In this document: one piece after another, positions 7,411 to 25,912 of the stretch
Numbering within the stretch: the stretch's first letter is position 1
Layout: every line of letters begins with the position of its first letter
Assembly (NCBI GenBank): GCA_951406725.2
Contig: OX597815.1
Span: 20,584,001-20,648,000, forward strand
Direction of reading: 5' to 3'
Length of the DNA stretch: 64,000 nt
From: Octopus vulgaris
Taxonomy: Eukaryota
The notes under the pieces: model-generated
Database searches by the model: none
What the model was told of the DNA's origin: nothing
The model's input: only the letters and a program-made list of their open reading frames with translations
Translations under genes and position numbers: made by a program

Positions 7411-7843
7411 ATTAGCTGTATTGTGCATATTATGTACTCATATTTACACGGTGTGTAACTGTGTGTCCAAATAAACTGTTGATATATTACCAGTTCATAC
7501 AGAAGTACGCTTCATGAAAACTTTCAAATTTTTCACATAAAGGAAGTTTGTGACTATAAAAATCTATTACGACATGACAATACCAAACTTTTGTTAATGT
7601 TACCAGCAGTTAAAAAAGTTATTTACATTTTCACTTTTATTTTCAAAAACACCGTCTAGGATTGGTGAGGCAGTTGCTTTTAACAATTATTTTCGTAAAA
7701 TGCATTTATAGTTTGTACAAGGGTAGCTTAGCGTTGTCTTTTCAATAAAGCGTTTCTGTCCATAGAGAAATCAATGCCGACACTGTTGGATATCAGCCTT
7801 ATGCAAAACCTGATTACAAATAGAGAAGAATGATAAACCTGTT

Positions 7844-8028
7844 AATTTGTACTTCAATATGCAAAGTCCTTGCTGAAGGAATTTACGAAAAATGAGAACG
7901 TTTGTCTAAATTTTGTACTTCAATATGCAAAGTCCTTGCTGAAGGAATTTACAAAAAATGAGAACGTTTTTCTAAATTTTGTACTTCAATATGCATAGTC
8001 CTTACTGAAGTTATTTACAGAAAATGAT
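7844..8028. repeat. 66-bp minisatellite, about 2.8 copies
   Basis: GTACTTCAATATGCA recurs at 7849, 7915 and 7981. Confidence 0.92.
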
Positions 8029-13185: not shown

Positions 13186-13364
13186 TGCCAGTAAGTGTGT
13201 GTGCATATGTATGTGTATGTATATATATATATGTACATACATATATTAATATTAGTTTGTTTTTGTTTTATGTCACATTATATATAAAATCAATTTAACA
13301 TTATTAGGTTATTCAATACAATTTTATTACAGCACAAATTTATTAATATGCATATCGTTAGCTA

Positions 13365-13530
13365 CTACACACATTTTTTCCTCTCCTTGTTTTTTCTGTG
13401 TCCCTTTCTGTAGAAGAGCGTAGGCTCGAAACGTAAAATACTTTTTCTATTCCTGAGCGTTATACTAATACATCTGTTTGTTTTGTACACCACCTGTCTT
13501 CGTCTTTTGTTTGTTTCGTAACCTCTCCTA
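13365..13530 (+). mobile_element. Penelope-like terminus with variant minimal hammerhead
   Basis: CTGTAGA-A-GAGC-GTAG-GCTC-GAAA-CG-TA at 13408-13435; ends in (TA)n. Inverted copy at 14278-14425. Confidence 0.65.
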
Positions 13531-13670: not shown

Positions 13671-13770
13671 ATCCGCGCTACGTACGTTTCATAGCGAGCG
13701 GAACCTCACCTCCGAAGTGGTAAATATCTAAGCGAGATGTATACCGCGGACTACTCTTCAGGTCAAGGAT
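13671..13770 (-). ncRNA. Candidate type I hammerhead ribozyme
   Basis: ATCCTTGAC-CTGAAGA-GTAGTCCGCGG...CCGCTCGCTAT-GAAA-CGTACG-TA-GCGCGGAT. Confidence 0.5.
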
Positions 13771-14008
13771 ATCTTGATGAGATGAAACTTTACATTGTCG
13801 CAAGGAGGTACATGTTAATGCATGGAAGATTCTGTCAGAATCTTCCATGTGTTAACATGTACCTCCTTGCGATACCTCCTTAGTGACAATGTAACCTTTC
13901 ATTTCATCGAGATATGCTTGGCTTGGAGAGTAACCTGCGGTATACACCACACTTGGATATTTACCACATCCGAGGTTCCGATCGCAATGAAACCTATATA
14001 GCCCAGAT
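13671..14008. repeat. Long imperfect inverted repeat (fold-back hairpin)
   Basis: Arms 13671-13834 and 13836-14008 centred on GATTCTG-T-CAGAATC. Near-perfect proximally, with mismatches distally. Confidence 0.95.
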
Positions 14009-14239
14009 TTTATCTATTCCATTCCGTAACTCTTGTGTTCTTATTCGCACACCCGGCAACCTTGGTCACCTACCGTGAATTATAAAAATAACTTTTTTTA
14101 GTTTATCGTACTTCGATACGAAAAAATTCCCAACCTTTCGTCTCAATAAACCAATATTGTCCCTGAAAGTTGTTTTTTATATTTAAAACTGATTGTTTGA
14201 AGCTAACTTTCTTCTTACATCTCGATCCCTGGATCTTAC

Positions 14240-14277
<38 letters not shown>

Positions 14278-14281
<4 letters not shown>

Positions 14282-14425
14282 AGAATTTACGAAAAAAGAC
14301 AAAAGACGAAGACAGGTGGTGTACAAAACAAGCAGATGTATTAGTATAACGCTCAGGAATAGAAAAAGTCTTACGTTTCGAGCCTACGCTCTTCTACAGA
14401 AAGGGACACAGAAAAAAACAAGTAG
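14278..14425 (-). mobile_element. Penelope-like terminus with variant minimal hammerhead (second copy)
   Basis: Reverse complement of 13385-13530; HHR-like motif at 14372-14399. Confidence 0.65.
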
Positions 14426-14431
14426 AGAAAC

Positions 14432-18719: not shown

Positions 18720-20251
18720 AATTGTACAATTAATTAATATAATATAATTATGTGTAATATAAATATATAAATATAAAAAAAAATTTGAAATTTAAAATTT
18801 AAATATGAAAATGAGTAAAAAATGAGTAAAAATTTAAGCTCGGCAAAATTAAAATTAAAATTTGCAAAGCAGTCGAAAGCTTTCTTAAAAGACAATGGTA
18901 AAATATGAAGGCGAAATATGTACCTGCATTGTAATACTAAAAGACGTGTATATTTTAGGTGTTCAGGCCAAATTCAAATGCAAAAGTAAAAAAATTACCC
19001 ATACAATATTTTTTCAGTTGACATTTTAAACCTCGTAGCGTGCCTGCAGGAATTTAAAAGCTCTCGTCTTTGGTTCAATGCATGTTTATCCTGAAACAGG
19101 ATGAAGAGTTTTTCAGAGAGACAGAGCTTGCATCTCCTTGGTCCTCTATATGCTCCATGTTCATATGGTGCTGTTTTCTCCAAAATTGTCCAACTGATAT
19201 TGAAAGGACGAGTATCATTTACCTTCAATTGCCAGACATGTTTTGCCCGATTTATTGCTGTCATATTTCGGGGTATCAAAATGAATTTCGGTGGGAATAA
19301 AATCCAGTCTTGAATTTTCCGAAGCTCCTGTGTATATTTTATATATAGAAAAAAAATTGACAAGTCAGTCAGTCGCCCGCTGACACTCGTTAACGCTACA
19401 TCAAAGAGGCCAGGGAAAAGAAGAAAGAAGACATGCACCCAACACCAGAGCTGAAGACACCTCCGAAAGGGGGGGGGGGATGCCACGTCAAAACGGTAGA
19501 GGAATAGCGGCCGAAACCGGATGTGGTTCCTCCTGATGATGTCTTGAGCTAACTGGATCCTATAAAGGAGCTGTTGTGGTAGCAGACCATGAAACACAGT
19601 TGAAATTCCTCCTGAGTCATCTATTTGTACTTTAGCTCTATAAACTATTCCTTTCTCTAGATATTTTTCTTCTAACGGACAGCAACTCTGATCTTTGAAA
19701 TTGCGAGTCTTCTGGTTAAATTCAGGACCGAGGGGTTGCTTCTAATGATTTTCGTGCTGTGCTGATTAATTAAAGAGGCGAAGTTTTGCAACATGAATAG
19801 CAAACCTTCAGCGTTCTCCTATTAAAAATTCCATAGAACTCAGAGCTAGTTTGAAAATGTTTAGAAACTAGTTTTAATAATTCTCTACCTATATCTGTTT
19901 TTACAGCAATGTTAAATGCCGGATTAAACCACAAATCTTTCCTAGTTCTAGTTCTACGTGTTCTATTATTGCTAGTAGTAGTTTGACTATACTGGATCTT
20001 CTCCGAGAATCCACTGTTCCTTAATACTTTATTATAATACGGTGCAGCATTTTGAAACGCTGGGTGATATGGATGATATGCACCTTCCTACATTACTAAT
20101 TAGATCCTTCGGAATTACGGGAGGATGATTTGACTATTTGTTAATATAAAATATCGTTTCATTGGGCTTACGGTAGGGCTTAAATTTATCTAATTACAAA
20201 TCTAAGTTAGTATCTAAATATCTTCATCATTAAGGTTACTATCGTTATTCG
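18720..20251 (-). mobile_element. Penelope-like retroelement remnant (RT thumb plus GIY-YIG endonuclease)
   Basis: KPYRKPNETIFYINK*SNHPPV...APYYNKVLRNSGF; WFNPAF...; CPLEEKYLEKGIVYRAKV; YTGASE/FKTGFYSHRNSF; KHVWQLK...WTIL...CKLCLSEKLFI...LNQRRELLNSCRH. Confidence 0.9.
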
Positions 20252-25718: not shown

Positions 25719-25912
25719 CAATTGCAGCGTGGAAGGTGTTTATAAGCCATTTAAGAAACACACAAAAACCGTTAGACTCACTTCAACATTAAACATTTTT
25801 TTAAAAACGGTTTTTGTGTGTTTCTTAAATGGCTTATAAACACCTTCCAATTGTTTTCGTTCCAGCACACGATCTCAGATCAGGTCACTTGCTATGCAAG
25901 TACATCTCCGTA
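25719..25912. mobile_element. Short fold-back insertion with a 12-bp TSD
   Basis: 43-bp perfect inverted arms 25731-25773 and 25806-25848; ATTAACATATAA at 25707 and 25913. Confidence 0.85.

What the first reader, a model, noticed from the sequence alone, without database searches (positions are those of the whole stretch)
13671..13770. Complete hammerhead fold hidden in one arm of the fold-back, masked by its own antisense arm
The minus strand shows CUGAAGA (13761-13755) and stem II GUAGU-CC-GCGG / CCGC-UC-GCUAU extended by AUCUCGCUU/AGGUGAGGU. It continues with GAAA (13690-13687), a palindromic stem III ACGUACGU suited to dimer formation, a GUA cleavage triplet (cut 13679/13678) and an imperfect stem I AUCCUUGAC/GCGCGGAU. 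The mirror position in the other arm (plus strand, about 13915-14008) keeps a degenerate TTGGAGA...GAAA. Opposite-polarity ribozyme motifs facing each other in a rod recall viroid-like and retrozyme RNAs and could act as a conformational switch. Caveats: the stem II closing pair is G-U, stem I is weak, and the motif is antisense to the apparent LTR promoter.
Basis: inference. Interest (0 to 1): 0.75.

Follow-up and report, generated by a model that had tools for sequence, protein, structure and literature searches.

The report
Decayed Penelope retrotransposon hammerhead fold-back
The self-cutting RNA motif is really there, but it is the usual hammerhead in the end repeat of an old, high-copy Penelope-type jumping gene, present twice because two short copies sit head to head; this copy is damaged and predicted not to fold or cut, so it is likely genomic debris rather than a viroid-like switch.

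Summary
Every motif lies at the stated coordinates. The 338-bp fold-back is two head-to-head, 5'-truncated copies of the pseudo-LTR of a Hydra-clade Penelope-like element. [quoted passage not shown] The hammerhead was probably real in the source elements: family-majority letters fold unconstrained into a hammerhead dimer, and a sister family changes 0 of 32 core and core-adjacent positions against 50 of 265 flanking ones. The G-U 'closing pair' is a Hydra trait. This copy is a fossil: 88-89% identical to the majority, stem I broken, hammerhead fold 12 kcal/mol above the free fold alone and 67 above it in the rod. Either strand makes the antisense arm first, so a switch is unlikely. Inverted 5' copies carrying a hammerhead on both strands are already published for this clade. 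A useful by-product: 19 of 19 other fold-backs pair one short with one long arm, and centres cluster at one site. The scan reported the same kind of structure before on other DNA (e1-9501824, e1-8669363).

The parts
13671..13841 (-). Short (inverted) arm: 5'-truncated pseudo-LTR copy of the Hydra-type element, read outward from the centre; ends 29 nt short of the family's usual short end, in a (TACA)n/(TA)n tract
   Evidence: 88.1% identical to family majority over 177 columns
13755..13761 (-). Hammerhead core box CUGAAGA (C3-A9), intact
13691..13754 (-). Long stem II (59 nt in the family majority, 64 here through a 5-nt duplication)
13679..13690 (-). GAAA, palindromic helix III ACGUACGU (family majority ACAUAUGU), GUA; predicted cut 13679/13678
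13762..13775 (-). Stem I 5' strand; G>A at the second pair from the core breaks the family's 3-bp G-C helix
13671..13678 (-). Stem I 3' strand, with a C>G change; distal part lost
13829..13841 (.). Fold-back centre, mini-palindrome ATTCTGTCAGAAT; matches the family's 5'-end hotspot (inferred RNA 5' end)
13842..14245 (+). Long arm: pseudo-LTR copy running to the long end, just before where the ORF starts in full elements, then (TA)n
   Evidence: 89.3% to majority over 412 columns
13923..14000 (+). Second hammerhead copy, core broken (C3>U, A6>G, G16.2>A); homologous cut 14000/14001
14030..14038 (+). Family short-end site, 36-38 nt past the cut
13354..13530 (+). Outer left arm: separate, younger 180-nt repeat with a minimal hammerhead-like motif CTGTAGA...GAAACGTA (13408-13436); not part of the inner element
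14280..14430 (-). Outer right arm: second copy of that younger repeat, in opposite orientation

Best explanation
The motif is the type I hammerhead in the pseudo-LTR of an old Hydra-clade Penelope-like retrotransposon, present twice because two 5'-truncated copies are joined head to head; the source elements' ribozyme likely cut RNA as a dimer, whereas this copy is decayed and predicted to be inactive and masked. Shown: family membership, the link to the ORF, the two preferred 3' ends, the clustered 5' ends, the decay. Inferred: the element's nuclease nicked both strands of a (TA)n tract; reverse transcription started at two fixed internal RNA sites (36-38 nt past the hammerhead cut, and about 212 nt further on, just before the ORF); both cDNAs ran through the uncut hammerhead to the RNA 5' end (probably the pseudo-LTR's start site) and were joined through the small palindrome there. 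That gives one short and one long arm. After insertion both arms drifted without selection.
For: Family of >=1554 and >=2554 first-look candidates. The same repeat lies 3' of the nuclease ORF and 3'UTR in L070, L074, L081, L082, L091 and directly 5' of the ORF start in L029, L091, L105/L256. RWK (L105, L106, L107), DKT (L105, L114, L120), CxCX5C, CxxC-E-N-CxH; Pfam GIY-YIG E 0.003, below its cut-off. These are the Hydra features of PMC8557442 section 11. Majority letters: hammerhead -25.2 vs free -26.5 as a monomer; the hammerhead dimer equals the free cofold minimum, -62.2, against -53.0 for two monomers. Sister family (36 arms): 0 of 12 core and 0 of 32 core plus adjacent helix positions changed, vs 50 of 265 in flanks (Fisher p 0.002 for the 32, 0.087 for the 12 alone). 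N7 and the base before GAAA do change; one A-U>G-C swap in stem I; three stem II mismatches become pairs. One short plus one long arm in 19 of 19 other fold-backs found with the palindrome alone (hand count; p 4e-6). 5' ends: 17 of 36 within 15 columns. Arms of one insertion share more derived alleles than arms of different insertions (2.27 vs 0.71, p 9e-6, 22 pairs), and no column separates short from long arms, so fold-backs arose repeatedly. PMC11167929 (parts 1-2): a PLE protein nicks and extends both strands, starts at two internal RNA sites and uses mostly uncut RNA.
Against: No cleavage, transcript start or priming site was measured. No Rfam hammerhead match. Only two families were compared, and two changes in the distal stem II break the aligned pairs. 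The published 'tail' between two start sites is 30-40 nt; here it is 212 nt. Shared alleles between arms could also come from later gene conversion. Loci are the best BLAST matches (40 scored per search), so they lean to well-kept copies. No Hydra reference sequence was aligned and no tree was built. The plus-strand TATA-like word about 30 nt before the 5' hotspot is not canonical. Core conservation among copies is slightly above base-matched flanks (0.937 vs 0.911, p about 0.01), which pure neutrality does not predict.
Confidence: 0.85

Rival explanations
1. Same element and same fossil status, but the inversion formed by snap-back: one cDNA folded on the small palindrome at its 3' end and was copied back, and the nuclease then cut the hairpin at the short-end site.
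For: The centre is a mini-palindrome (ATTCTG-T-CAGAAT) with microhomology-type joins in many copies. The arms share alleles. PMC8557442 suggests the tail comes from nuclease resolution of the intermediate. The short end reads TGT/ATT, like the AT-rich cut preference in PMC11167929.
Against: The short end is also the 3' end of non-inverted, ORF-bearing copies (L091, L094, L097, L099, L100). Some pairs carry hundreds of unrelated or ORF-derived bases between the arms (L034, L108, L126, L130), which a simple snap-back does not give.
Confidence: 0.3
2. The fold-back is itself a non-autonomous unit (MITE-like or retrozyme-like) amplified from one master copy.
For: Many copies have the same outline, about 600 bp between (TA)n tracts.
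Against: Centres differ from copy to copy; no column separates short from long arms; arms within a copy are closer than arms between copies. Solo arms, tandem and ORF-bearing forms share the same ends. The short units fetched were not in multi-unit tandem arrays.
Confidence: 0.06
3. One reading: a viroid-like rod RNA with two opposite-polarity ribozymes that switches between a masked rod and an active hammerhead, kept for a function at this locus.
For: The layout resembles hammerhead viroid rods (recalled). The left core is intact. Its helix III carries a double change that keeps and strengthens the palindrome (-9.8 vs -7.0 kcal/mol), seen in 1 of 94 arms. A transcript started at the centre would be unmasked.
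Against: Rod -192.8 vs hammerhead-constrained -125.4 kcal/mol. On either strand the antisense arm is transcribed first. Even unmasked, the left arm prefers other folds by 12 kcal/mol (monomer) and 19 (dimer) and ranks about 29th of 33 core-intact arms. The right core has three lesions. 46 of 104 arms keep an intact core against 48 expected from independent decay. The double change is expected in about 0.2 of 94 arms by chance (estimate from column counts).
Confidence: 0.03
4. The hammerhead likeness is chance.
For: No Rfam hit; no covariation among copies.
Against: It sits where Hydra hammerheads sit, is the minimum-energy dimer fold of the majority letters, is conserved between families and is rare in resampled sequence.
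Confidence: 0.04

Closest known systems
Hydra-clade Penelope-like elements and their hammerheads (Craig et al. 2021, PMC8557442; passages, section 11, supplement part 2 of 59 read), especially Penelope-13_HM and Hydra-1_Obim
   Same: RWK, DKT, CxCX5C, CxxC/CxH, C-terminal GIY-YIG, (TA)n targets, hammerhead in the pseudo-LTR, often U before GAAA. Penelope-13_HM has an inverted 5'-truncated copy and is listed with its hammerhead on both strands, with a G-U at the base of stem II.
   Different: Stem II region of 59 nt, against about 10-25 nt in the listed Hydra motifs. Two 3' ends 212 nt apart rather than 30-40. The hammerhead sequence differs from Hydra-1_oBim's, so this is another family.
PLE hammerheads with palindromic helix III (Cervera and de la Pena 2014, PMC4209133; parts 1-2 of 4 read)
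   Same: Type I, short palindromic helix III predicted to work as a dimer; extra base after A9; the paper notes pairs of motifs 100-700 bp apart on opposite strands.
   Different: Their consensus keeps G10.1-C11.1 and a 7-8-bp helix II; here that position is G-U or G-G and helix II is much longer.
Poseidon element PAc studied in vitro (Frangieh et al. 2024, PMC11167929; parts 1-2 of 4 read)
   Same: Both strands nicked and extended, two internal start sites, uncut RNA as the main template; fits two fixed 3' ends and cDNAs that span the cut.
   Different: Other clade; its start sites lie inside the ORF and are 30-40 nt apart; its hammerhead overlaps the start codon.
Metazoan non-LTR retrozymes (PMC7229834 passages; bioRxiv 10.64898/2026.07.22.740005 part 1 of 5)
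   Same: Non-coding, type I hammerhead, Penelope-related.
   Different: Retrozymes are head-to-tail tandem units giving circles; this is a head-to-head pair with one motif per strand, so no transcript is flanked by two hammerheads.
Hammerhead viroids and satellite RNAs with plus and minus ribozymes (recalled, no call)
   Same: Rod in which a hammerhead pairs with the complement of the other polarity's hammerhead.
   Different: Chromosomal DNA repeat made by inverted insertion; no sign of a circular replicating RNA; one core is broken.

Membership tests
Hydra-clade PLE (source family) | Single ORF, RT then C-terminal GIY-YIG endonuclease, about 3 kb or less | tested here: met
   L091, L254, L255 read in three frames: N-terminus, DKT region, RT remnants, then nuclease within about 2.2-2.6 kb; all copies broken; Pfam GIY-YIG E 0.003, under cut-off
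Hydra-clade PLE (source family) | N-terminal RWK motif | tested here: met
   QMRWK in L105, L106, L107
Hydra-clade PLE (source family) | DKG changed to DKT | tested here: met
   ADKT in L105, L114, L120
Hydra-clade PLE (source family) | CxCX5C linker; CxxC and CxH around conserved E and N; no CCHH | tested here: met
   CSCRRPTSC, CDLCI.EV, LNER, CKH; absence of CCHH judged by eye only
Hydra-clade PLE (source family) | (TA)n insertion preference; tandem and inverted copies | tested here: met
Hydra-clade PLE (source family) | Groups with Hydra in an RT phylogeny | not tested
   No reference Hydra sequences were held
Type I hammerhead (family majority) | Core C3 U4 G5 A6 G8 A9, G12 A13 A14 A15.1, U16.1 H17 | tested here: met
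   All present, 87-100% per column; unchanged in the sister family
Type I hammerhead (family majority) | Three helices around an open core | tested here: met
   Monomer within 1.3 kcal/mol of the minimum; dimer is the minimum
Type I hammerhead (family majority) | G10.1-C11.1 closing pair | tested here: not met
   G-U in this family, G-G in the sister family; also variable in published Hydra motifs
Type I hammerhead (this copy, left arm) | Folds into the hammerhead | tested here: not met
   12 kcal/mol above the free fold alone, 19 as a dimer, 67 in the rod; prediction only
Type I hammerhead | Mg-dependent self-cleavage; loop I-loop II contacts | not testable with these tools
   Needs bench assay
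Rfam hammerhead models | Match to any of the 4227 Rfam families | tested here: not met
   No hammerhead family at E<=10
Non-LTR retrozyme | Two or more head-to-tail units, each with a hammerhead | tested here: not met
   Head-to-head pair; the window holds only these two segments
Viroid-like RNA | Circular RNA replicating with ribozymes in both polarities | not testable with these tools
   No raw RNA reads available; the right-arm core is broken

The most novel reading that the evidence does not exclude
These fold-backs are a genomic record of how Penelope-like elements make inverted insertions: one integration event primes reverse transcription at two fixed RNA sites 212 nt apart, both cDNAs run through an uncut, unusually long-stemmed dimer-type hammerhead to the transcript's 5' end and fuse there, while a minority of copies (L091, L257) start at the hammerhead cut and so record cleavage in vivo.
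Probability: 0.45. Interest if true: 0.5.

Novelty: new member of a known kind. Interest (0 to 1): 0.27.

Why it matters
As a locus it matters little: it is one of thousands of decayed copies of a known class, and opposite-strand hammerhead pairs from inverted Penelope-like copies are in print. The family-level pattern is more useful. How Penelope-like elements form inverted insertions, and what their hammerheads do, are described as open in PMC8557442 and PMC11167929. The short/long rule, the clustered centres and the two mapped 3' ends give exact sites to test in an in vitro priming assay, and the 59-nt stem II conserved between two families is a hammerhead form that Rfam misses.

Tried and rejected
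Rfam scans found no hammerhead, only microsatellite-driven miRNA hits and one weak stem-loop. Expression: no RNA holder listed. Laying contigs at 80% likeness showed many family members in two unlabelled runs and two guessed-RNA runs, but no piece spanning this locus and no start or end sites; this says nothing about this copy's expression. Covariation within the family: almost none, 0-5 double changes per pair; two stem IIb pairs were mis-specified and corrected. Idea that the hammerhead cut sets the 5' end of most copies: rejected as a rule. Of 30 loci fetched with the ORF start only L091/L104 begins at the cut. Exact-pattern searches gave 1 copy at the cut (L257, junction ambiguous over about 7 nt), 4 at the upstream hotspot and 0 at a control site, too few to weigh. 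Idea that G-U at the base of stem II is CpG decay: rejected, 98 of 104 arms have U and none C. Idea that the outer inverted arms belong to the element: rejected, they are a separate 95-97% family, and of 19 unique other palindrome loci only L027 had a relative nearby. ADAR-type fossil editing: no clear signal (A>G 9, T>C 3 of 53 changes on the plus strand). The first dimer calculation used an impossible constraint and was redone. 40 stretches downstream of diverged nuclease hits gave the sister family, but the descriptor scan found no convincing unrelated hammerhead. Literature: 'twin priming' + Penelope + inverted listed 2 unrelated papers and octopus + Penelope + hammerhead listed 4; I did not find the short/long rule in these searches, which do not cover subscription journals. 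Unread supplements of PMC8557442 (consensus sequences) may already hold this family.

Full report
Observation. The window is G000:C2:20584001-20648000 of a 2.8-Gb animal genome; earlier scan notes call it an octopus, which I did not test. Bases 13671-14008 form an inverted repeat with 74.5% matching arms that folds into a rod (z -18.6). A strict hammerhead descriptor hits once in the window against a mean of 0.013 in resampled windows. No Rfam hammerhead model matches.

What the repeat is. Searches of the genome gave 1554 first-look candidates for the palindrome and 2554 for the right arm plus its 3' extension; 40 were scored each time. Copies show a constant outline: (TA)n, short arm, variable centre, long arm with about 210 extra nt, (TA)n. 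Other copies lack the inversion and continue upstream into a shared 3'UTR and a nuclease ORF, or downstream into an ORF start. L091 runs repeat, ORF, repeat; L256 joins the repeat to an ORF with RWK and DKT. The ORF carries RWK, DKT, a CxCX5C linker, a C-terminal GIY-YIG (Pfam E 0.003, under cut-off) and CxxC/CxH around E and N. With (TA)n targeting, these are the features listed for the Hydra clade (PMC8557442 section 11). The arms are therefore pseudo-LTR copies. That paper describes inverted 5'-truncated copies as common in Penelope-like elements. Its File S2 lists Penelope-13_HM with the same hammerhead on both strands and many Hydra motifs with U before GAAA. PMC4209133 also notes motif pairs 100-700 bp apart on opposite strands.

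Is the hammerhead real? 222 profile hits reduced to 162 distinct segments, 104 spanning the motif. Majority letters give stem I (3 G-C pairs, internal loop, 8 more pairs), CUGAAGA, a 59-nt stem II region, GAAA, ACAUAUGU and A17. Unconstrained folding returns stems I and II of this topology (-26.5; full hammerhead -25.2). For two molecules the hammerhead dimer is the minimum-energy structure (-62.2 vs -53.0 for two monomers). Among copies the core is only slightly better kept than base-matched flanks (0.937 vs 0.911, p about 0.01), double changes are rare, and 46 of 104 cores are intact against 48 expected, as for copies decaying after insertion. A sister family, found downstream of nuclease hits of 43-55% protein identity and sampled as 36 arms, differs at 50 of 265 flanking columns but at 0 of 12 core and 0 of 32 core plus adjacent helix columns (p 0.087 and 0.002). 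It changes N7 and the base before GAAA, swaps A-U for G-C in stem I, turns three stem II mismatches into pairs and two pairs into wobbles; two distal stem II pairs do not hold as aligned. Selection thus kept the ribozyme in the active source lineages. Cleavage itself is untested.

This copy. The arms are 88.1% and 89.3% identical to the majority; the family median is 89.4%. The left arm keeps the core but has lost two of the three core-proximal stem I pairs and ends 29 nt early, which removes distal stem I. Its hammerhead fold is 12 kcal/mol above its free fold, 19 as a dimer and 67 in the rod. It ranks about 29th of 33 arms with intact core and closing pairs; 7 of those 33 are within 3 kcal/mol. 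The right arm has C3>U, A6>G and a helix III change. A transcript through the whole palindrome makes the antisense arm first on either strand, so the motif would be born masked (follows from the layout). One oddity: helix III here is ACGUACGU, a double change that keeps the palindrome, seen in 1 of 94 arms; column counts put the chance expectation near 0.2 such arms.

How the fold-back likely formed. 3' ends are bimodal: 36-38 nt past the cut, or about 212 nt further, just before the ORF. In the 19 distinct other loci found with the palindrome alone (7 duplicate loci and the window dropped), 13 pair the two exact ends, 3 pair the short end with a longer but cut arm and 3 pair the long end with a shorter arm; none is short/short or long/long (hand count; p 4e-6). 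Two long/long joins (L107, L129) appeared next to ORF starts in other searches. In loci from searches not centred on the palindrome, 17 of 36 5' ends fall within 15 columns at the site that forms the centre here (two repeats of a tandem triple dropped). Arms within an insertion share more derived alleles than arms of different insertions, and no column marks short against long arms (22 pairs), so each fold-back formed separately. PMC11167929 shows a PLE protein extending both nicked strands from two internal RNA sites on mostly uncut RNA, and PMC2377424 (passages) places Penelope's promoter inside the pseudo-LTR. I infer twin priming at the two ends with both cDNAs stopping at the RNA 5' end (about 55%), against snap-back with nuclease resolution (about 30%). 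The term twin priming is recalled from L1 work. Since the arms span the cut, their templates were uncut. Two copies begin at or near the cut (L091; L257), a weak hint of occasional cleavage.

Surroundings. The outer inverted arms (13354-13530, 14280-14430) are two copies of a younger 180-nt family with 1803 candidates and a minimal hammerhead-like motif; they are not a regular part of the inner element.

Comparison and verdict. It works like, and by motifs is a member of, the Hydra clade (no tree built). It is not a retrozyme by arrangement, and nothing points to a viroid-like RNA. Earlier scan notes on other DNA reached the same reading, including the short/long rule and the long stem; my reading was recorded before I saw them, and they are not independent proof. 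New member of a known kind; interest 0.27.

Noticed in passing
window 25691-25630, minus strand: A second, well-formed type I hammerhead candidate (CTGATGA ... GAAACCTAAGGTC, stem I CCG/CGG), about 150 nt before a (TA)n tract, next to a long inverted repeat at 25730-25890; likely another Penelope-type end.
   Followed up: no
window 19451-19600, plus strand: Cluster of hammerhead core words (CTGAAGA, CCGAAAG, GCCGAAACCGG, CTGATGA) in non-standard order; may be the rewired motif that other scan notes describe for Naiad ends.
   Followed up: no
window 13408-13436 (+) and 14399-14371 (-): Minimal hammerhead-like motif with U in place of A6 (CTGTAGA) in a young 180-nt repeat family with fixed 5' and (TA)n 3' ends; the U is shared by nearly all 20 fetched copies.
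   Followed up: partly
L002, about 1290-1350: A motif nearly matching the Hydra-1_oBim hammerhead row of PMC8557442 File S2 lies beside a copy of this family.
   Followed up: no
L091 2427-6420: A full-length-type copy that starts at the predicted hammerhead cut and ends at the short end; a different Hydra-like RT fragment lies on the opposite strand at 7414-7983.
   Followed up: partly
L029/L058 3'UTR (L058 about 2290-2580): The element's 3'UTR holds two or three imperfect repeats of about 85 nt upstream of the 5'-end hotspot; role unknown.
   Followed up: no
L088-L089 (G000:C2:193998590-194004676): Three near-identical 2.86-kb blocks that each include a nuclease-to-pseudo-LTR piece with another repeat inserted; probably a local tandem duplication.
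   Followed up: partly
L041, upstream of the long arm: The spacer between the arms is a short run of scrambled 15-25-nt pieces of the element's 5' end, suggesting repeated template jumps at the join.
   Followed up: no
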